Source: a virus (Duplodnaviria; Heunggongvirae; Uroviricota; Caudoviricetes). Taken from it: a stretch of 12,421 nucleotides of DNA. Every line of letters starts with the position of its first letter. Positions within the stretch are counted from its first letter, which is position 1. The position numbers were made by a program, and so were the translations under genes. The stretch lies in the IMG/VR virus record IMGVR_UViG_2925919700_000002, positions 1 to 12,421 of that record; one strand, written 5' to 3'. The notes beneath the pieces are model-generated. The model ran no database searches. It was given only the letters and a program-made list of their open reading frames with translations, and had not been told where the DNA came from. This document shows positions 1-12,421 of the stretch, piece after piece.

Positions 1-1146
1 TTACGCCTTCTTTATATCCTCCATAATTCCAGAGTGGGACATATTTGGGACATTATCACCAAAAATGTCGTCTATTTTCCTCGAATGCTCTGTCAAATGA
101 TTAGGCGCAAGGTGAGCATACCTACGAACCATTTCTATGGACTCCCATCCGCCCATTTCCTGAAGCACTGATAATGGGACGCCTGACTGAATCAGCCAGC
201 TTGCCCAGGTGTGTCTGAGGTCATGGAAACGGAAATCTTCAATTCCTGCACGACGACAAGCTGATAGCCATGATGTCTTGCTGTCGATGCGCATCTTCCT
301 GACCGCAGGCGTTGATGTTCCATCTGCTCGCTTAGCCGCCTTGGTATGTACAAACACCCATTTGTGATGCTTGCCTATTTGATCACGCAACACTTTACAG
401 GCGGTATCGTTCAGCGCCACACCAATGGCGCGGTTTGATTTGCTCTCTTCTGGATTCACCCAGGCAACTCGTCGCTGCATGTCGATTTGTTGCCATTCCA
501 GATTTATGATGTTCGACTTTCTCAGACCAGTTGCCAGCGCAAACTTGACGACAGATTTCAGTGGTTCGGGGCACTCATCAATAAGGCGTTTTGCTTCCTC
601 CTTTTCCAGCCATCTGACTCGCTTGTTTCTGACCGCTGGTTTCTTGATGACAGGCGCTTTTTCCAGCCACTTCCAGTCGCGTTCTGCAGCACGGAGAATG
701 GCCTTTATCATGGCAAGATGCTTTGCCTTTGTCTGAGTTGATACTGGCTTTGGTTCATAAACAGGCGGTTCTTTACCTTTCCTGATGGCGGCCTGAACTT
801 TCTGTTTCCATATTTCTTTCGTCTTTCTGTTATGCATTCTGCTTACAGCAGAGTAAATCTTTGCCTCCGAGATATCTTTACCAGCTCGTTGCTGCCAGAC
901 GATCCAACCGAGAGTCATATCCCATGCCATGTATTCGTTATCGCCGTTTTTTACTCTACGACGATCTACTAAGTCACCGAAACGCTTTTCCATGAATAAT
1001 TCATAGGCTTCGCGTTCATCTGGCTCTACTTCCAGAGATACGAGTGCGATTTCATAAGCACGGCGCTCAATATCGTCTCGAACCTCTAGGCTGCTGATTC
1101 GTTCTTTGATTTCTTTAATCAGTTCTTTATTGGTAAATGTGGTCAT
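1..1146 (-). CDS. int: Phage tyrosine integrase (P22/DLP12 IntD family catalytic and core-binding domains) with a non-canonical N-terminal ~90 aa
   Basis: 381-aa ORF, stop at 1-3, ATG at 1144-1146. C-terminal region carries the tyrosine recombinase signature ([17 protein letters not shown] ... [39 protein letters not shown]). N-terminal ~90 aa are acidic and helical, unlike the MSLFRR-type arm-binding domain I recall for this family. Confidence 0.85.
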
Positions 1147-2296: not shown

Positions 2297-3394
2297 TTAG
2301 AACTGGTAAACCAGACCTACAGCAACGATGTCATCAGTGCTTACACCGAGTGCTTTAGTGAAGTCATTTTTGTCAAGCAGGTTGATTTTGTAATCAACGA
2401 AAGTAGACATATTTTTGTTGAAGTAATAGGTTGCACCTACATCAACATATTTGACTAAGTCCTGATCGCCCCATACTCCAAGATCCTTACCTTTAGATTG
2501 CAGGTAAGCAACGGACGGACGCAGACCGAAATCGAACTGATATTGTGCAACAGCTTCGAAGTTTTGAGCTTTATTAGCAACGAAGTGATCAGCAAATACA
2601 GTCATATTCTGGGTTTCAGAATAGGTAGTGGCCAGGTAAATGTTGTTAGCGTCATATTTCAGACCTGCGGCCCAAACTTCTGCATTTTTACCGGAAGCAA
2701 ATACTTCAGGAAGAACTTTCCCTGCATTAACTTGAGTGTCGGTACGATCAGATTTCGCATAAGTTGCACCGATACCGAATCCTTCGTATTCATAGGTAGC
2801 AGAGAAACCGAAGCCATCACCGTTACCTTCGGTGTAGTTATCGAAATCGCTACGATCGTTTTTGCCTTGGTACTGAGCAGCAAAGTTCAGACCATCAACC
2901 AGACCAAAGAAGTCGTTGTTACGATAGGTTGCAACACCAGTGGTGCGACCAGTCATGAACACATCTGTTTGGGTCCAGGTATCGCCACCGAATTCTGGCA
3001 GAACGTCAGTCCACGCACCGATGTCGTATGCTACACCGTAGTTACGGCCGTAATCGATTGAGCCGTAGTCACCGAATTTCAGGCCTGCAAATGCAAGACG
3101 GGTTTTGTCTTTGGAGGAACCTTGAGATTCAGCGCGGTTGCCTTTGAATTCATATTCCCACTGACCGAAACCAGTCAGCTGATCGTTGATTTGGGTTTCG
3201 CCTTTGAAGCCCAGACGAACATAAGTAGTATCACCATCATCTGCATCGTTAGAGGAAAAGTAGTGCTTGGCATTAACTTTCCCGTACAGATCCAGCTTGT
3301 TACTGTCTTTATTATAAATTTCAGCTGCCTGAGCAGACATCGCCATCAGTACTGATGCAGCTACAGCAGAAATTGCCACTGTTAATTTTTTCAT
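2297..3394 (-). CDS. nmpC: Outer-membrane general porin, prophage-encoded NmpC/Lc type (OmpC/OmpF/PhoE family), intact
   Basis: 365 aa. Sec signal peptide [23 protein letters not shown] then AEIYNKD. Porin signatures throughout and a C-terminal ...VGLVYQF ending in Phe. AAGGG lies upstream of the ATG at 3392-3394. No insertion sequence interrupts it. Confidence 0.9.
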
Positions 3395-6671: not shown

Positions 6672-6937
6672 TCACCATAACTGCTAATCATTCAAACTAC
6701 TTAACCTGTGACAGAGCCAACACGCAGTCTGTCACTGTCAGGAAAGTGGTAAAACTGCAACTCAATTACTGCAATGCCCTCGTAATTAAGTGAATTTACA
6801 ATATCGTCCTGTTCGGAGGGAAGAACGCGGGATGTTCATTCTTCATCACTTTTAATTGATGTATATGCTCTCTTTTCTGACGTTAGCCTCCGACGGCAGG
6901 CTTCAATGACCCAGGCTGAGAAATTCCCGGACCCTTT

Positions 6938-9028
6938 TTGATCAAGAGCGATGTTAATTTGTTCAATCATTTGGTTAGGAAATCCGCGGCAACGCGCGCC
7001 GAGACAGCAGCAAAACGGGCAGAGGATATTGCATCCGCCGTGGCGCTTGAGGATGCGAGCACGACGAAAAAGGGGATAGTACAGCTCAGCAGTGCGACCA
7101 ACAGCACGTCTGAAACGCTGGCGGCAACGCCAAAGGCAGTAAAAGCAGCCAATGACAATGCTGAGAAACGTCTGCAGAAAGACCAGAACGGCGCTGATAT
7201 ACCCGATAAGGGACGCTTCCTGAACAACATTAACGCGGTCAGTAAAACAGACTTTGCTGATAAGCGTGGTATGCGTTATGTGCGGGTTAACGCTCCTGCA
7301 GGTGCAACATCTGGAAAATATTACCCTGTTGTTGTTATGCGTTCTGCTGGCTCAGTAAGCGAACTGGCATCAAGGGTCATTATCACCACGGCAACGCGAA
7401 CCGCAGGCGATCCGATGAATAACTGCGAGTTTAACGGATTTGTTATGCCTGGTGGCTGGACTGACAGGGGGCGTTATGCTTATGGAATGTTCTGGCAATA
7501 TCAAAACAATGAACGAGCCATCCACTCAATAATGATGAGTAATAAGGGCGATGATTTGCGCTCTGTGTTCTATGTTGATGGCGCTGCTTTCCCTGTTTTT
7601 GCGTTTATCGAAGATGGCCTGTCAATATCCGCACCTGGTGCTGATCTCGTTGTTAATGATACGACCTATAAGTTTGGGGCAACAAATCCAGCGACTGAAT
7701 GTATCGCGGCGGACGTTATCCTTGATTTTAAGAGTGGGCGTGGTTTTTATGAGTCTCATTCGTTAATCGTTAACGATAACTTGTCGTGCAAAAAACTTTT
7801 TGCCACAGACGAAATTGTAGCGCGTGGTGGTAATCAGATTCGAATGATAGGTGGGGAGTATGGTGCATTATGGCGTAATGATGGCGCTAAAACTTACCTG
7901 CTGCTTACCAATCAAGGTGATGTTTATGGTGGCTGGAATACATTAAGACCGTTTGCTATTGATAACGCAACCGGCGAACTGGTTATTGGAACCAAACTGT
8001 CCGCAAGTCTGAACGGTAATGCATTAACAGCAACAAAGCTGCAAACGCCAAGACTGGTTTCTGGTGTTGAGTTTGATGGTTCCAAAGATATTACTTTAAC
8101 CGCCGCGCATGTGGCTGCTTTTGCCAGAAGGGCAACGGATACGTATGCCGATGCGGATGGGGGCGTTCCATGGAATGCCGAATCAGGCGCTTACAATGTC
8201 ACCCGCTCTGGCGACAGCTATATTCTGGTTAACTTCTATACCGGAGTCGGAAGTTGCCGGACCTTGCAGATGAAGGCACATTACAGAAATGGAGGTCTGT
8301 TCTACCGTTCCTCAAGAGATGGCTATGGTTTTGAGGAAGACTGGGCAGAAGTTTATACCTCGAAAAATCTTCCACCAGAAAGCTACCCAGTCGGTGCACC
8401 AATCCCGTGGCCATCAGATACCGTTCCGTCTGGTTATGCCCTGATGCAGGGGCAGACTTTTGACAAATCTGCATACCCGAAACTTGCAGCCGCTTATCCG
8501 TCAGGCGTGATCCCTGATATGCGTGGCTGGACGATTAAGGGCAAACCTGCCAGTGGTCGTGCCGTATTGTCTCAGGAACAGGACGGCATTAAATCGCACA
8601 CCCACAGCGCCAGCGCATCCAGTACGGATTTGGGGACGAAAACCACATCGTCGTTTGATTACGGCACTAAATCCACGAATAACACCGGGGCGCATACGCA
8701 CAGTGTGAGCGGTACAGCCGCAAGTGCCGGAAACCATACTCATAGTGTCACAGGCGCATCAGCAGTCAGCCAGTGGTCACAAAATGGGTCAGTACATAAG
8801 GTAGTGTCTGCGGCCAGTGTGAATACAAGTGCTGCAGGAGCGCACACTCATAGTGTCAGCGGCACAGCCGCATCTGCAGGTGCTCACGCACATACTGTCG
8901 GTATTGGTGCTCATACGCACTCTGTTGCGATTGGCTCACATGGACACACCATCACCGTTAACGCTGCTGGTAACGCGGAAAACACCGTCAAAAACATCGC
9001 ATTTAACTACATTGTGAGGCTTGCATAA
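6938..9028 (+). CDS. stf: Side tail fibre protein, 5'-truncated: distal ~680 aa only, lacking the N-terminal tail-attachment domain; start codon uncertain (possible pseudogene)
   Basis: Open frame of 696 codons from TTG 6938. Similarity to Stf begins near 6984 ([55 protein letters not shown]). Conserved C-terminal block (GAPIPWPSD ... [31 protein letters not shown] ... [18 protein letters not shown]) matches lambda Stf and StfR as recalled. No in-frame ATG with an RBS near the 5' end. Confidence 0.8.
8596..8957 (+). repeat. His-x-His repeat array within the stf 3' region
   Basis: Repeated [15 protein letters not shown] units (8688-8732 and 8838-8882) plus shorter HTHS/HAHT/HGHT units. These are coding repeats, typical of the fibre-tip domains of lambda Stf and T4 gp37-type fibres. 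Confidence 0.7.
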
Positions 9029-9603
9029 TGGCATTCAGAATGAGTGAACAACCACGGACCATAAAAATTTATAATCTGCTGTCCGGAACTAATGAATTTA
9101 TTGGTGAAGGTGATGCATATATTCCGCCTCATACAGGTCTGCCAGCAAACAGTACCGATATTGCACCGCCAGATATTCCGGCTGGTTTCGTGGCTGTTTT
9201 CAACAGTGATGAGTCATCGTGGCATCTCGTTGAAGATCATCGGGGTAAAACGGTTTATGACGTGGCTTCCGGCGACGCGTTATTTATTTCTGAACTCGGC
9301 TCATTACCGGAAAATGTCACCTGGTTATCCCCGGAAGGGGAGTTTCAGAAGTGGAACGGCACAGCCTGGGGGAAGGATACGGAAGCAGAAAAACTGTTCC
9401 GGATCCGGGAGGCGGAAGAAACAAAAAACAGCCTGATGCAGGTAGCCAGTGAGCATATAGCGCCGCTTCAGGATGCTGTGGATCTGGAGATCGCAACGGA
9501 GAAAGAAACCTTGTTGCTGGAAGCCTGGAAAAAGTATCGGGTGTTGCTGAATCGTGTTGATACATCAACTGCACCGGATATTGAATGGCCAGCCCTACCG
9601 TAG
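9028..9603 (+). CDS. tfa: Tail fibre assembly protein (Tfa)
   Basis: 191 aa. ATG overlaps the stf stop (TAATG). Conserved C-terminal Tfa block [37 protein letters not shown]. Confidence 0.85.
9455..9568 (+). repeat. Direct repeat copy A (tfa 3' conserved block)
   Basis: About 114 bp, roughly 85% identical by eye to 12226-12340, in the same orientation. Confidence 0.7.
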
Positions 9604-9679
9604 GGTAAGATATATAAATTCTATAATTAGAAGTATCTTTCCATTTAAGGCTAGGAAGGGGGGCTTGGAAAACGTAAGG

Positions 9680-9703
9680 AATCTCACACCGAGATTATTT
9701 TTA
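9680..9703. terminator. Weak hairpin between convergent tfa and recombinase genes; possible bidirectional terminator
   Basis: Stem AATCTC / GAGATT with loop ACACC at 9680-9696, followed by ATTTTT on the plus strand. Short stem, low confidence. Confidence 0.3.
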
Positions 9704-10291
9704 TATATCAGGTGTCTGATTTTTTGCTTTAGCTCTTAAAATGGTTTGCCGCGAGGTTTTGAATTCTTGGGCAATGTCACTTATATTTATACCTGACTTA
9801 ATTTGCTCTAGTACCCTCTGTATTTGTTCATCATTTAACACAGGTGGGCGACCAAATCGCTTTCCTGCGCCCCGTGCTCTTAATATCCCTGAATGAGTAC
9901 GCTCAAGTAAAAGGTCTCGCTCAAATTCAGCGACTGCTGAAATTACTTGCATCATCATTTTTCCAGGTGGACTGGTCAGGTCAACGCCCCCCAATGCTAA
10001 GCAATGCACTTTGATACCTGCTTTGGTCAGTTGTTCCACCGTTTTACTGATATCCATTGGATTACAACCGAGGCGATCCAGTTTTGTGACAATCAATGCA
10101 TCACCTCTTTTCAGTCGATCAAGCAACTGGTTAAAACCAGGACGCTCACTGGTTGCTGCTGAGCCGCTAATTTGTTCTTCAATTATTTGCTGAGATTTGA
10201 TGTTAAAACCTGCACTTTCGATTTCCCGACGTTGATTTTTGGTTGTTTGTTCCAGAGTTGATACCCGACAGTAAGCATAAATTCGAGACAT
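9701..10291 (-). CDS. Small serine recombinase (resolvase/invertase family), PinR/PinQ-like
   Basis: 196 aa. N-terminal catalytic motif [11 protein letters not shown] with the presumptive catalytic Ser. Conserved [12 protein letters not shown] and [14 protein letters not shown] blocks. C-terminal HTH ([19 protein letters not shown]). Position after stf-tfa on the opposite strand matches the Rac and Qin layout. Confidence 0.85.
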
Positions 10292-10609
10292 AGTGAGATC
10301 TTCTATACGAAATTGGTGTACATATCATAATGCATCTCAGAAAATAATTTTGATTATTTTTGTACATATTTGTATGTACACGTTCGAAAATAAACGAATG
10401 CGTATGCAACCCCGTAATTTTGGTGAGATCCAAAATCGATTTTGTGAAAAATGGCCTTAACTCGGTTTGTTTTTCGAGTTCCGGGCGGACTCAAGGAAGA
10501 AGAATAGTGTTGCGTGTTATTTTAACCAGATTTCAAGTTGTTTGGTCGTGGAAAAGTGGAGCAAAATGTTGTTAAAGTGGAAAAATGATAAAAAAGTAAG
10601 TTTATTATA
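10292..10609. promoter_or_regulatory. 318-bp AT-rich spacer upstream of the recombinase, with palindromes
   Basis: Inverted repeat TGTACATA-tttg-TATGTACA (10361-10380), with a TGTACATA half-site copy at 10317-10324. Perfect 14-bp palindrome CAAAATCGATTTTG (10431-10444). Direct repeats of AAGTGGAAAA around 10549-10585. No convincing ORF. Confidence 0.4.
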
Positions 10610-10843
10610 TTACATTTTACCATTTAAATTTTTGTTGTCTTTAAGAACTGATATCGCTGTTTGTAATAATTCTTTGTTATCCAGCCATGACTTTTTCTTT
10701 ATGTTTCCTTCAATGTAATCAAGCAATGTTCTGGTATTGATAGGTCTTCCCTGTTTTGCTACTTCCATTACAGCATCCCCTAGGATAATTCTTACTTCAG
10801 GAAGCTGCGCAGGGAACCACTTTAGGGTGTCTTTTGATTTCAT
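10610..10843 (-). CDS. Small prophage protein, YnaE/YdfK-like by position and size
   Basis: 77 aa from ATG 10841-10843 (MKSKDTLKWFPAQ...), with AAGGAA 7 nt upstream. The ORF track's start at 10876 has no RBS. Sits upstream of the pin-like gene on the same strand, as ynaE/ydfK do in Rac and Qin. Identity is from recollection, not alignment. Confidence 0.5.
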   Translation of the reverse strand: MKSKDTLKWFPAQLPEVRIILGDAVMEVAKQGRPINTRTLLDYIEGNIKKKSWLDNKELLQTAISVLKDNKNLNGKM

Positions 10844-11343
10844 GAAGATATTCCTTAAAATATTATTGATTTTCATTGCGATATTGTATGTCTGATTCAG
10901 TATATGTTGACTTATACATCGGTTTTGTCTGGGTTATTGGATATGCCAATCCCTAATTTTATTAGAGCATGACTAAAAATGCTGAATATGATAAGGAGCG
11001 AAGTGATTATCAGTATGCTGTTCATATAGCCTCGAATTAGTAATGTGTTATATATGATATAGTTGACAATTTTTATCCTGGGGGTTCTTAAAGTTCGTAG
11101 ATAAACATTGTCGTTTCAGGTATACAGGAATGCTAACAGGTGGCAGCAAAAATCAGGCGGTTTATGGCGCAAGCTGAAGTGGCAACTGCAAACTATCTTA
11201 TGCAGAGACTCTACACGGATTGGGTTTAAAAGTATACATAGATAACAGTTTTTATCTGAAGAAGAAAAATATCAAGGTGATATAGCCTATATGCCTATGA
11301 TGCGGAGGAATGAATGTGATGGGAGTGATGTATCTGAATAGTT

Positions 11344-11383
11344 GAAAAACCGCAGACACGCCTTAAGCAAGAACGTGCTGCGG
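11344..11383 (-). terminator. Rho-independent terminator downstream of the ybcY-like gene
   Basis: On the minus strand: stem CCGCAGCACG ... CGTGTCTGCGG (plus 11350-11383, one bulge) followed directly by TTTTT (plus 11345-11349). Confidence 0.6.
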
Positions 11384-11390
11384 TTGGATG

Positions 11391-12059
11391 CTATTTTTTC
11401 CCTGAAGCGGAAAACATTACTACAGTACCTTGAACCTTGGTTTTAACATTCTCGAAATGCTCTGAGAGTATATGTGTTAAGCCTTCTTCGGAATCTTTTG
11501 TGTTTGAAAAGATGCCTTTCTGATTGTAAATGCGCATCAGTTTTTGACCGAAGCTATTGTGCACAACTCCATCGCCAAGAATTGTGGCTCCGTATAGAGT
11601 TCCATCGTCAGTTAAGGCCTGCGCCGCATTGCGTATTACACAGCTTTTTGTAGATATATTTCCAGGCAGGCAGTGAAGAAGGTAAAACATGGAAATGGAA
11701 TCAAATTGACCATGTAACGCCGCGGGATAAGGTTCAAAAACATCATGGCTAATTTTATGTTTAATTTTTGATTCCCCAGCCCTTGTAGATGCCGCGTTCA
11801 GGCTAGCTTCGTTCAAATCCATTAAAGATATCAGACTACTCTCAGGTACGTGAGTAAGGTAAAACCCAGTTCCAACACCAATATCCAGATGGTTGTTACC
11901 TAAATGTTCCAGAAAGTGTGGAAGAAGGTGTTCCTTTGTAGGACATCCCCATGCAAGCCGATTTGATACTCCCAAAACCCACCAGTCATAAAGCTTTAGG
12001 GTAAGTGGTGTGTAAATTTTAGCCCCATCATCTGTGTTTTTTTTCATTAATTTCACCAT
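11391..12059 (-). CDS. ybcY: Class I SAM-dependent methyltransferase (YbcY-like), apparently intact
   Basis: 222 aa. Motif I DIGVGTGFY. The start may instead be the second Met (ATG ending at 12047), which has GGTG upstream; the first ATG at 12059 has no RBS. Confidence 0.7.
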   Translation of the reverse strand: MVKLMKKNTDDGAKIYTPLTLKLYDWWVLGVSNRLAWGCPTKEHLLPHFLEHLGNNHLDIGVGTGFYLTHVPESSLISLMDLNEASLNAASTRAGESKIKHKISHDVFEPYPAALHGQFDSISMFYLLHCLPGNISTKSCVIRNAAQALTDDGTLYGATILGDGVVHNSFGQKLMRIYNQKGIFSNTKDSEEGLTHILSEHFENVKTKVQGTVVMFSASGKK

Positions 12060-12115
12060 GTTATAGTTTTATTTGTGAATTAAATCAATTATGGCGATGA
12101 ATTACAAGGGGTTAA

Positions 12116-12421
12116 ATGCTGCCGCAGCATAGCGATATTGAAATAGCCTGGTATGCTTCGATACAACAGGAGCCGAATGGCTGGAAGACCGTCACCACAC
12201 AGTTCTACATCCAGGAATTCAGTGAGTATATTGCGCCACTGCAGGATGCTGTAGATCTGGAAATCGCAACGGAGGAAGAAAGATCGTTGCTGGAGGCATG
12301 GAATAAATATCGGGTATTGTTGAATCGAGTTGATACATCAGTAGCTCTGGGTATGAAGCTGTTTGTAACTCATGTTACAGTAACAGTCATTACTATCTCG
12401 AAGGTGCAAAATGTATATTGA
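12116..12421 (+). CDS. tfaX: Tail fibre assembly protein remnant (TfaX-like), carrying only the conserved Tfa C-terminal block
   Basis: 101 aa. AAGGGG lies upstream of the ATG at 12116. Contains [37 protein letters not shown], then an unrelated tail. Stop at 12419-12421. Confidence 0.6.
12226..12340 (+). repeat. Direct repeat copy B (tfa 3' conserved block)
   Basis: Partner of 9455-9568, same orientation. Confidence 0.7.

What the first reader, a model, noticed from the sequence alone, without database searches (positions are those of the whole stretch)
11391..12059. Apparently intact SAM-dependent methyltransferase carried in the tail-fibre region
A 222-aa class I methyltransferase with a clear motif I (DIGVGTGFY), its own terminator and no frame disruption sits among tail-fibre remnants. 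I recall the K-12 counterpart being annotated as a pseudogene, which would make an intact copy notable. Its substrate (DNA, RNA, protein or small molecule) is unknown. If it modifies nucleic acid it could serve in self-protection or anti-restriction.
Basis: partly seen in the sequence, partly recalled or inferred. Interest (0 to 1): 0.4.

Follow-up and report, generated by a model that had tools for sequence, protein, structure and literature searches.

The report
Common prophage small-molecule methyltransferase (intact ybcY)
The gene is real and intact, but it is the ordinary, already annotated form of a methyltransferase that about 70% of E. coli strains and several live lambda-like phages carry; it looks like a small-molecule enzyme, not a DNA-modifying one, and K-12's broken copy is the exception.

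Summary
The ORF at 11391-12059 (- strand, 222 aa) exists with motif I, no frame disruption and a strong hairpin plus T5 terminator. Homologues and the upstream signals put the real start at M5 (12047, 218 aa). It is the intact allele of K-12 ybcY. K-12 has a 2-bp deletion that removes this ATG and shifts the frame.

Being intact is not notable. The gene is in 3,798 of 5,426 complete E. coli genomes, and about 88% of a sample of 60 records are undisrupted at the K-12 lesion site. RefSeq annotates it as WP_000239881.1, PHROGs as phrog_2132 (unknown function). An identical copy sits in 14 isolated lambdoid phages.

No DNA-methyltransferase motif, target-recognition domain or family match was found. 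A confident AlphaFold model matches small-molecule and lipid methyltransferases only generically. The invariant His129 aligns with the catalytic His115 of juvenile-hormone acid methyltransferase. Relatives in over 70 other bacterial species are stand-alone chromosomal genes with unconserved neighbours, and dN/dS is 0.1-0.2.

Best reading: a self-contained phage "moron" encoding a small-molecule methyltransferase of unknown substrate. The anti-restriction idea is unsupported. Low interest; already known.

The parts
11391..12059 (-). Annotated CDS of the class I SAM-dependent methyltransferase (222 aa, RefSeq WP_000239881.1); the intact allele of K-12 ybcY
11391..12047 (-). Probable true CDS (218 aa), starting at the second in-frame ATG (M5)
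   Evidence: All homologues and phrog_2132 start here. The upstream AGGTGA is conserved across genera, while the first ATG is absent in Salmonella and Enterobacter.
12053..12057 (-). Shine-Dalgarno-like GGTGA, 5 nt upstream of the M5 ATG
   Evidence: Sequence; conserved in L006, L010 and L013
12037..12044 (-). A8 homopolymer immediately after the M5 ATG; the K-12 2-bp lesion lies at this ATG/A-run junction
12060..12088 (-). Sigma-70 promoter TTGATT-17-TATAAC. It was assigned to ybcY in a genomic SELEX study of K-12, which also marks an H-NS site in this spacer. The hexamer assignment was made by sequence inspection, not by TSS mapping.
   Evidence: PMC3946193; the sequence is identical in the window
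12088..12115 (-). Alternative promoter-like site TTAACC-16-CATAAT (9 of 12). Promoter-like sites are no more frequent here than in shuffles.
11859..11888 (-). Motif I (LDIGVGTGFY), the SAM-binding glycine loop
11673..11675 (-). Codon of His129 (His125 in 218-aa numbering). It is invariant across the family and aligns with the catalytic His115 of B. mori JHAMT.
11345..11383 (-). Intrinsic terminator: hairpin 11350-11383 plus T5 at 11345-11349. The hairpin belongs to the conserved cassette; the T-tract belongs to the neighbouring sequence.
12209..12354 (+). Remnant of the tail-fibre assembly gene (tfaX-like). It is a direct repeat (82% identity) of the 3' end of tfa at 9436-9581. Together they bracket the 2.8-kb segment pin-ydfK-ynaM-methyltransferase.

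Best explanation
This is a self-contained accessory gene (a 'moron') of lambda-like phages. It has its own promoter, its own ribosome-binding site and a terminator hairpin. It is transcribed against the late operon, between the side-tail-fibre genes and the attachment site.

It encodes a soluble protein of about 24 kDa that is a single class I methyltransferase domain. The enzyme binds SAM through the usual elements: G61xG63xG65, the acidic D81 at the end of strand 2, and H105-D106. It then transfers the methyl group to a small, probably hydrophobic or aromatic, acceptor. The acceptor would sit under the N-terminal lid helix (invariant Y24, D25, W37, C39). The invariant His129, just after strand 4, would act as the general base, as His115 does in juvenile-hormone acid methyltransferase. 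That favours O-methylation of a carboxyl or hydroxyl group; a thiol is the next most likely acceptor.

In the lysogen the gene would modify a metabolite or xenobiotic (detoxification or metabolic tuning), not nucleic acid.

Shown: gene integrity, fold class, family spread, purifying selection, cassette structure, carriage by live phages.
Inferred: the type of acceptor, the role of His129, and any benefit to the host.
For: Fold: the AF2 model is confident (pLDDT 90.6, pTM 0.87).
- Foldseek top hits are phosphatidylethanolamine N-MT, JHAMT, CurJ and citrinin C-MTs, phosphoethanolamine MTs, NodS, RebM, NovO/CouO and UbiG.

Sequence:
- The best solved relatives are JHAMT (E 5e-5 with the family profile) and UbiG. 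In that alignment the invariant H129 falls on JHAMT His115, which the structure paper shows to be catalytic.
- Of 60 distant members, 25 touch BioC, 17 UbiE/MenG and 13 NodS in NCBIfam; RNA and protein MT models are hit by 1-3.

Family:
- 799 clusters at 50% identity have E <= 1e-10.
- At least 600 genomic matches were found, and the loci inspected come from gamma-, beta- and alphaproteobacteria, cyanobacteria, Acidobacteria, Actinobacteria and Firmicutes.
- Neighbours are not conserved. Only generic SDR, ABC, LysR and GST genes recur.
- One member is fused to a cytochrome P450.

Selection: dN/dS is 0.10-0.20 against the Citrobacter, Salmonella and Enterobacter copies.

Moron features:
- GC is 41%, against 48-54% in the tail-fibre genes.
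- There is a SELEX promoter plus an H-NS site and a hairpin terminator.
- The cassette has the same boundary at 11350 in K-12 and in two phages.
- The identical gene is in 14 isolated phages.
Against: No member of the family has been characterised, and no curated family claims it.

Structural similarity is generic: TM 0.55-0.66 and 10-21% identity. Some tRNA and mRNA-cap methyltransferases (CmoA, Trm9, METTL6) score within 2 Z units of the top hit, so an RNA substrate is not excluded by fold.

The Gln partner of the JHAMT Gln/His pair has no identified counterpart.

The proximity of the conserved residues to SAM is inferred from the positions of the motifs.

Expression in a lysogen has not been shown for this strain, and the marked H-NS site suggests silencing.
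Confidence: 0.68

Rival explanations
1. DNA methyltransferase that protects phage or host DNA, or counters restriction.
For: It is phage-borne and SAM-dependent. There is a weak PADLOC hit to mad2 over the SAM-binding region only (E 0.003, 14 bits).
Confidence: 0.03
2. tRNA or rRNA methyltransferase (for example Trm9/CmoM-like esterification of a wobble-base carboxyl group) that tunes translation in the lysogen.
Against: This protein's own pI is 6.9. No RNA-MT NCBIfam model matches it, and such models are hit by only 1 of 60 family members each. It has no extra RNA-binding domain and no Trm112-like partner nearby.
Confidence: 0.08
3. Phospholipid N-methyltransferase (PmtA-like) that converts phosphatidylethanolamine to methylated forms and so remodels the envelope, alongside the neighbouring lom, ompT and bor cargo.
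For: The top Foldseek hit is the PE N-methyltransferase 8ys9 (E 2e-12, TM 0.62-0.66). There is a weak NCBIfam PmtA hit (E 0.01). The N-terminal helix is strongly aromatic.
Confidence: 0.05
4. Inert passenger: an open reading frame kept only by chance in a decaying prophage.
For: The surrounding prophage is heavily deleted (fused int/yfdT, truncated stf). K-12 has lost the gene without obvious cost. About 30% of E. coli genomes lack it.
Against: dN/dS is 0.1-0.2. About 25 residues are at least 90% conserved across phyla. About 45 nt of upstream sequence is conserved across genera even though synonymous sites are saturated. The gene is identical in viable phages.
Confidence: 0.04

Closest known systems
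E. coli K-12 ybcY (DLP12 prophage pseudogene) / RefSeq WP_000239881.1 / PHROG phrog_2132
   Same: Same gene. DNA identity is 99.3% over 669 nt. It has the same promoter spacer shared with tfaX and the same hairpin. The phrog_2132 match has E 8e-157 over the full length.
   Different: K-12 lacks 2 bp at the ATG/A8 junction, which destroys the conserved start and shifts the frame. The window carries the intact allele. Here a pin-ydfK-ynaM block lies between tfa and the gene, whereas in K-12 and in phages ev243 and PhiR26_1 the gene follows tfa directly.
Juvenile hormone acid O-methyltransferase (JHAMT, PDB 7EBS/7EC0)
   Same: It is the best solved sequence relative (E 5e-5). The family-invariant His129 in 'LLHC' aligns with the catalytic His115 in 'TLHW'. 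Both have a hydrophobic acceptor pocket next to it.
   Different: Identity is about 21%, and the match covers only the SAM-binding half. The catalytic Gln of the Gln/His pair has no identified counterpart. JHAMT has a larger C-terminal substrate domain (255-288 aa).
UbiE/MenG, UbiG, BioC and NodS-type small-molecule methyltransferases
   Different: The window protein reaches none of their cut-offs. The family has its own signature residues (Y24, D25, W37, C39, H129, C130, N186, D189). It is not in a quinone, biotin or Nod-factor gene context.
Lambdoid phage morons (bor, lom, ompT-type cargo)
   Same: An independent transcription unit with its own promoter and terminator, lower GC than its flanks, inserted at the end of the late operon, dispensable, and marked as H-NS bound.
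   Different: The classic examples encode envelope proteins with known lysogenic-conversion phenotypes. This one encodes a cytoplasmic enzyme with no known phenotype.

Membership tests
Class I (Rossmann-fold) SAM-dependent methyltransferases | Glycine-rich motif I (E/DxGxGxG) at the end of strand 1 | tested here: met
   LDIGVGTG at residues 58-65. G61, G63 and G65 are invariant or at least 90% conserved in 60 distant members.
Class I (Rossmann-fold) SAM-dependent methyltransferases | Acidic residue at the end of strand 2 that binds the SAM ribose | tested here: met
   D81 is invariant in both alignments and lies at the end of predicted strand 76-81.
Class I (Rossmann-fold) SAM-dependent methyltransferases | Seven-stranded alpha/beta fold, with a curated domain model above threshold | tested here: met
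YbcY / phrog_2132 | Full-length match to the family profile and to the K-12 locus | tested here: met
   phrog_2132 E 8e-157, profile positions 1-218 of 218. 99.3% DNA identity to K-12 ybcY in the same flanking context.
DNA N6-adenine / N4-cytosine methyltransferases | Catalytic (D/N/S)PP(Y/F/W) motif after strand 4 | tested here: not met
   A regex search finds none; the position holds LLHCLPG.
DNA N6-adenine / N4-cytosine and C5-cytosine methyltransferases | Match to a DNA-methyltransferase family model, and a target-recognition domain | tested here: not met
   Only generic Methyltransf_11/12/23/25/31 and MTS hits appear at E <= 0.1. There is no PC motif. The 218 residues are fully used by the core fold plus the lid helix.
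Anti-phage defence or counter-defence systems (PADLOC) | Significant match to a defence-system component, with partner genes adjacent | tested here: not met
   Only mad2, at E 0.003 and 14 bits, over the SAM-binding region. The neighbours are tfa remnants, ynaM, ydfK and pin.
JHAMT-type carboxyl O-methyltransferases | Catalytic His after strand 4 | tested here: met
   His129 aligns with JHAMT His115 (counted from the alignment). It is invariant in 60 members. Its role in JHAMT is described in PMC8526772.
JHAMT-type carboxyl O-methyltransferases | Catalytic Gln in the N-terminal helix, and overall family-level similarity | tested here: inconclusive
   The profile alignment covers only residues 41-141. 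The N-terminal helix has invariant Y24/D25 but no aligned Gln. E 5e-5 reflects mainly the SAM-binding half.
Phospholipid N-methyltransferase PmtA | Score above the curated family cut-off | tested here: not met
   NF045882 scores 15.6 bits against a cut-off of 390. The profile matches 8ys9 at E 0.054.
UbiE/MenG, UbiG, BioC | Score above the curated family cut-off, and a pathway gene context | tested here: not met
   None is listed for the window protein at E <= 0.001. No quinone or biotin genes are nearby in 76 loci.
Phage moron | Own promoter and terminator, atypical composition, placed between conserved phage modules, dispensable | tested here: met
   Promoter from SELEX, hairpin terminator, and GC 41% against 48-54% in the flanking tail-fibre genes. 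In isolated phages it lies between tfa and the tfa remnant. It is broken in K-12 and absent from about 30% of genomes. Transcription in a lysogen was not tested.
Any methyltransferase | Demonstrated methyl transfer to a defined substrate | not testable with these tools
   No biochemical data were found in the searchable literature.

The most novel reading that the evidence does not exclude
The enzyme is a lysogenic-conversion factor with a new activity. In this reading the phage-borne methyltransferase, with its invariant His-Cys pair, methylates a host envelope lipid, quinone, siderophore or signalling metabolite. It would act together with the adjacent cargo that isolated phages carry (lom, a TAP-like hydrolase, ompT). 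The result would be a change in host physiology or in susceptibility to other phages. The family, which gave at least 600 matches in bacterial genomes, would then define an undescribed reaction.
Probability: 0.1. Interest if true: 0.5.

Novelty: already known. Interest (0 to 1): 0.12.

Why it matters
It matters little as a discovery. The gene is catalogued in thousands of genomes, and its intactness is the normal state.

Its remaining value is as an orphan enzyme. It is a well-conserved family under purifying selection, with no characterised member, and most E. coli strains and viable lambda-like phages carry it. The standard laboratory strain K-12 has it broken, which may explain why it has never been studied.

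Anyone wanting its function should work in a non-K-12 background, or repair the 2-bp lesion.

Tried and rejected
- Curated function: I looked in NCBIfam, PHROGs, PADLOC and PDB sequences and found only generic or sub-threshold hits.
- Recurring esterases: a hydrolase lies next to the gene in E. coli phages, Erwinia and Enterobacter, which suggested a conserved pair. The three hydrolases are unrelated subfamilies (BLASTP E 0.84; different Pfam families), so I rejected the idea.
- Conserved neighbourhood: I clustered 950 ORFs from 76 loci. Only promiscuous families recur (SDR in 13 loci, ABC in 11, LysR in 10, GST in 5, of which 3 are adjacent). No operon or biosynthetic cluster emerged.
- Domain fusions: one P450 fusion and one RCC1 fusion. 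Both are single-member clusters, one of them from a lichen-fungus MAG, so they are too thin to use.
- Literature: four searches (ybcY, ev243, DLP12 plus methyltransferase, moron plus methyltransferase) gave no functional study. They yielded only a SELEX promoter/H-NS entry and a null phenotype for a K-12 ybcY deletion under Hha overexpression.
- Terminator scan: the consensus scan found nothing because the hairpin has a bulge; direct folding was needed.
- Model coordinates were not exposed to scripts, so no pocket or electrostatics analysis was possible.

Full report
**1. What is in the sequence**

The window is a heavily deleted DLP12-type lambdoid prophage of E. coli. It lies next to a tRNA-Arg gene and is 100% identical over all 12,421 bases to strain MB06234.

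On the minus strand, 11391-12059 is an uninterrupted 222-codon ORF. Its product carries motif I, HLDIGVGTGFY. It passes the gathering scores of four generic Pfam methyltransferase domains, the best being Methyltransf_12 at 37.6 bits against a cut-off of 30.

The 71 nt after the stop codon fold into a hairpin:
- The stem has 17 pairs with interruptions, with its GC core at 11350-11383, and is followed by U5 at 11345-11349.
- The free energy is -22.3 kcal/mol, with z = -4.9 against 200 shuffles.
- The simple consensus scanner missed it because of a bulge.

- a truncated side tail fibre gene (6938-9028);
- tfa (9028-9603);
- a pin-type invertase, then ydfK and ynaM;
- the methyltransferase;
- a tfa remnant (12209-12421).

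The 3' end of tfa and the tfa remnant form a 146-nt direct repeat of 82% identity. This repeat brackets the intervening 2.8 kb.

**2. Refinement of the gene model**

The real start is probably the second in-frame ATG, at 12047, which gives 218 aa.
- All 36 aligned homologues (56-90% identical) begin at residue 5 of the ORF, and so does the PHROG profile.
- The upstream sequence TTGATTTAATTCAC-N-AAACTATAAC-A-(T/A)GGTGAAAT(T/C)A-ATG is conserved in a Salmonella copy and in a chromosomal Enterobacter copy. This holds even though synonymous sites between these genes are saturated.
- Those copies lack the first ATG but keep the AGGTGA ribosome-binding site.
- A genomic SELEX study of K-12 lists a constitutive sigma-70 promoter, TTGATT-17-TATAAC, for ybcY, together with an H-NS site in the ybcY/tfaX spacer (PMC3946193). 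In the window this is 12088-12083 and 12065-12060, so the -10 hexamer directly abuts the first ATG.

**3. Relation to K-12**

The K-12 copy (ybcY) is annotated as 'frameshifted'. The alignment shows a 2-bp deletion exactly at the junction of the conserved ATG and the following A8 run. The deletion destroys the start codon and shifts the frame relative to the upstream ATG.

**4. Is an intact copy notable? No.**

- The gene is found at 80% coverage or more in 3,798 of 5,426 complete E. coli genomes. There are up to four copies per genome, and it is routinely annotated as 'class I SAM-dependent methyltransferase'.
- I searched with a 100-nt probe across the start region and sampled 60 records evenly down the ranking. 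Of these, 53 had an ungapped 100-nt match. Six had the 98-nt K-12-type allele, all in strains of K-12 laboratory type (C600, EV36 and similar). One match was partial.
- The 90%-identity protein cluster holds 6,589 member sequences.
- The identical or 99% identical gene is present in 14 isolated lambdoid phage genomes, including ev243, 2G7b, PhiR26_1, PhiR29, Kati and Turner.
- In two of those phages whose annotation I inspected (ev243, PhiR26_1) it lies between stf-tfa and a tfa fragment, followed by a TAP-like alpha/beta hydrolase and ompT; ev243 then shows the integrase.

The intact allele is the norm, and K-12 is the exception.

**5. The gene as a cassette**

Similarity between the window, K-12 and the two phages ends at the same base, window position 11350. 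That is the 3' end of the hairpin.
- In K-12 and the phages the hairpin is followed by CATAATCC, the end of the convergent tfa gene.
- In the window it is followed by TTTTT.

The conserved unit is therefore tfa remnant, promoter, ORF and hairpin. The canonical T-tract is a property of this particular arrangement.

The gene's GC content is 41%, against 48-54% in the tail-fibre genes. Taken together, its own promoter, its own terminator, its atypical composition, its orientation against the late operon and its dispensability make it a textbook phage 'moron'.

**6. What kind of methyltransferase**

*No curated family claims it.* NCBIfam gives nothing near a cut-off. PHROGs calls the family 'unknown function'. 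PADLOC gives only a 14-bit hit over the SAM-binding region.

*DNA-methyltransferase signatures are absent.*
- There is no (D/N/S)PP(Y/F/W) motif and no PC motif.
- There is no DNA-methylase Pfam hit even at E 0.1.
- There is no room for a target-recognition domain.

*The structural model matches small-molecule enzymes, but only generically.* The AlphaFold model built from 37 homologues is confident (pLDDT 90.6, pTM 0.87) and shows a single Rossmann domain with an N-terminal helical lid.
- Foldseek against the PDB returns only small-molecule and lipid methyltransferases in the top 50. These include PE N-methyltransferase, JHAMT, polyketide C-methyltransferases, phosphoethanolamine methyltransferases, NodS, RebM, NovO/CouO and UbiG, at TM 0.55-0.66.
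- The viral structure library adds nothing specific.

*Sequence comparison points weakly to JHAMT and its kind.*
- With the family profile, the best solved relatives are JHAMT (E 5e-5) and UbiG.
- In that alignment the family's invariant His129 ('LLHC') falls on JHAMT His115 ('TLHW').
- The JHAMT structure paper shows that this histidine hydrogen-bonds the substrate carboxyl group and is essential for catalysis, as part of a Gln/His pair (PMC8526772). No counterpart of the Gln could be identified here.
- Across 60 distant members, the recurrent weak NCBIfam hits are BioC (25 members), UbiE/MenG (17), CpaM (14) and NodS (13). RNA or protein methyltransferase models are hit by 1-3 members.

**7. 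Family distribution and context**

The family is large. There are 1,321 clusters at 50% identity with E <= 0.001 and 799 with E <= 1e-10, nearly all full-length matches of about 220 aa.

A scan of one genome per species gave at least 600 matches. The 80 loci retrieved include Enterobacterales, Pseudomonas, Dyella, Vibrio, Burkholderiales, Rhizobiales, Nostoc, Acidobacteria, Pseudarthrobacter, Oceanobacillus and Plesiocystis.

Outside E. coli the gene is chromosomal and stands alone:
- in Salmonella it lies between a PMT_2 glycosyltransferase gene and a cytochrome b561 gene;
- in Enterobacter it follows an ABC transporter operon;
- in Yersinia, Erwinia and Aeromonas the contexts are different again.

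I clustered 950 neighbouring ORFs from 76 loci. No conserved partner emerged. Only SDR, ABC ATPase, LysR and GST genes recur, and only in 5-13 loci each. An apparent recurrence of esterases next to the gene turned out to involve unrelated subfamilies.

dN/dS against the Citrobacter, Salmonella and Enterobacter copies is 0.10-0.20. About 25 residues are at least 90% conserved across the whole family: Y24, D25, W37, C39, H57, the glycines of motif I, D81, S121, H129, C130, P132, G133, K138, N186, D189 and others. This is an enzyme under selection, not a relic.

**8. Most likely mechanism**

*Shown:* an intact, conserved class I SAM-binding fold, in a stand-alone gene with its own expression signals, carried by viable phages.

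*Inferred:* SAM is held by motif I, D81 and H105-D106. A small hydrophobic or aromatic acceptor sits under the aromatic lid helix. His129 deprotonates the acceptor for an SN2 methyl transfer. The position of His129 favours a carboxyl or hydroxyl oxygen, and a thiol is also possible.

I put about 0.68 on the general statement: a small-molecule methyltransferase moron that does not act on nucleic acid. I put about 0.3 on the specific O-methylation chemistry.

Rivals and my confidence in each:
- RNA methyltransferase, 0.08. The fold search does not exclude it.
- PmtA-like lipid N-methyltransferase, 0.05. It is the top Foldseek hit but fails the family cut-off by a wide margin.
- Inert passenger, 0.04.
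- DNA methyltransferase or anti-restriction factor, 0.03.

**9. Comparison with what is known, and verdict**

The feature is the already catalogued ybcY family (RefSeq WP_000239881.1, phrog_2132). It works like the UbiE, BioC or JHAMT type of small-molecule methyltransferase, but it is a member of none of them.

The literature I could search holds no functional study. It offers only the SELEX promoter entry, and a note that a K-12 ybcY deletion (already a pseudogene) did not alter Hha toxicity.

Its claim of notability and its nucleic-acid hypothesis are not supported.

Novelty: already known. Interest: low, 0.12. The one residual point is that a widespread phage-borne orphan enzyme has probably escaped study because K-12 carries a broken copy.

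Noticed in passing
window 1-1146 (- strand): One continuous 381-aa ORF is an in-frame fusion of the N-terminal part of YfdT with the C-terminal part of the IntD integrase. RefSeq annotates it as two partial pseudogenes. Almost the whole early region between int and the Q antiterminator is missing, so the prophage is probably immobile.
   Followed up: partly
window 2297-3394 (- strand): An uninterrupted 365-aa NmpC-type porin gene. From memory, K-12 nmpC is disrupted by IS5; this was not checked here.
   Followed up: no
window 8683-8872 (within the truncated tail fibre ORF 6938-9028): Three copies of a 40-nt repeat that encode a His-rich motif ([15 protein letters not shown]) near the C-terminus of the tail fibre.
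   Followed up: no
window 9701-10291 (- strand): An intact 196-aa Pin-type invertase. No inverted repeat of 25 nt or more was found in 6900-12421. There seems to be no invertible tail-fibre segment left for it to act on. Short crossover sites would have been missed by this search.
   Followed up: partly
window 9371-9569 (+ strand): A full-length Rfam IS009 match (212.6 bits against a gathering score of 117) lies inside the 3' end of the tfa gene. It overlaps the 146-nt direct repeat shared with the tfa remnant at 12209-12354.
   Followed up: no
window 12037-12047 (- strand): An A8 run directly follows the probable start codon, and the K-12 inactivating 2-bp deletion sits at this junction. It may be a slippage-prone site. 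No +1 or -1 alleles were seen in the sample of 60 records.
   Followed up: partly
window 12045-12090 compared with L006:6955-7003 and L013:3697-3745: About 45 nt upstream of the start (candidate -35, -10 and SD) is conserved between the E. coli phage copy and chromosomal copies in Enterobacter (65% aa identity) and Salmonella (79%). Synonymous sites between these genes are saturated. This suggests a constrained regulatory element that travels with the gene.
   Followed up: partly
L003:17605-20229 (just beyond the window's right end); L015:3831-6455; L016:474-3098: A 494-aa TAP-like alpha/beta hydrolase and ompT follow the tfa remnant in this strain. In the isolated phages ev243 and PhiR26_1 they are part of the phage genome. 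OmpT can therefore be phage cargo in these strains. K-12 has appY in place of the hydrolase.
   Followed up: partly
L023 (JBJEFM010000006.1, 4,319-bp contig of a 'Bacillus sp.' MAG): It carries a copy of the gene 100% identical to the E. coli one. This is most likely a mis-binned or contaminating E. coli contig.
   Followed up: no
L054:6726-7439, L077:969-1691, L091:6756-7379: In three unrelated genomes a glutathione S-transferase gene lies within 100 bp of the methyltransferase homologue. This is a weak hint towards xenobiotic metabolism, and too few cases to count as a conserved pair.
   Followed up: partly
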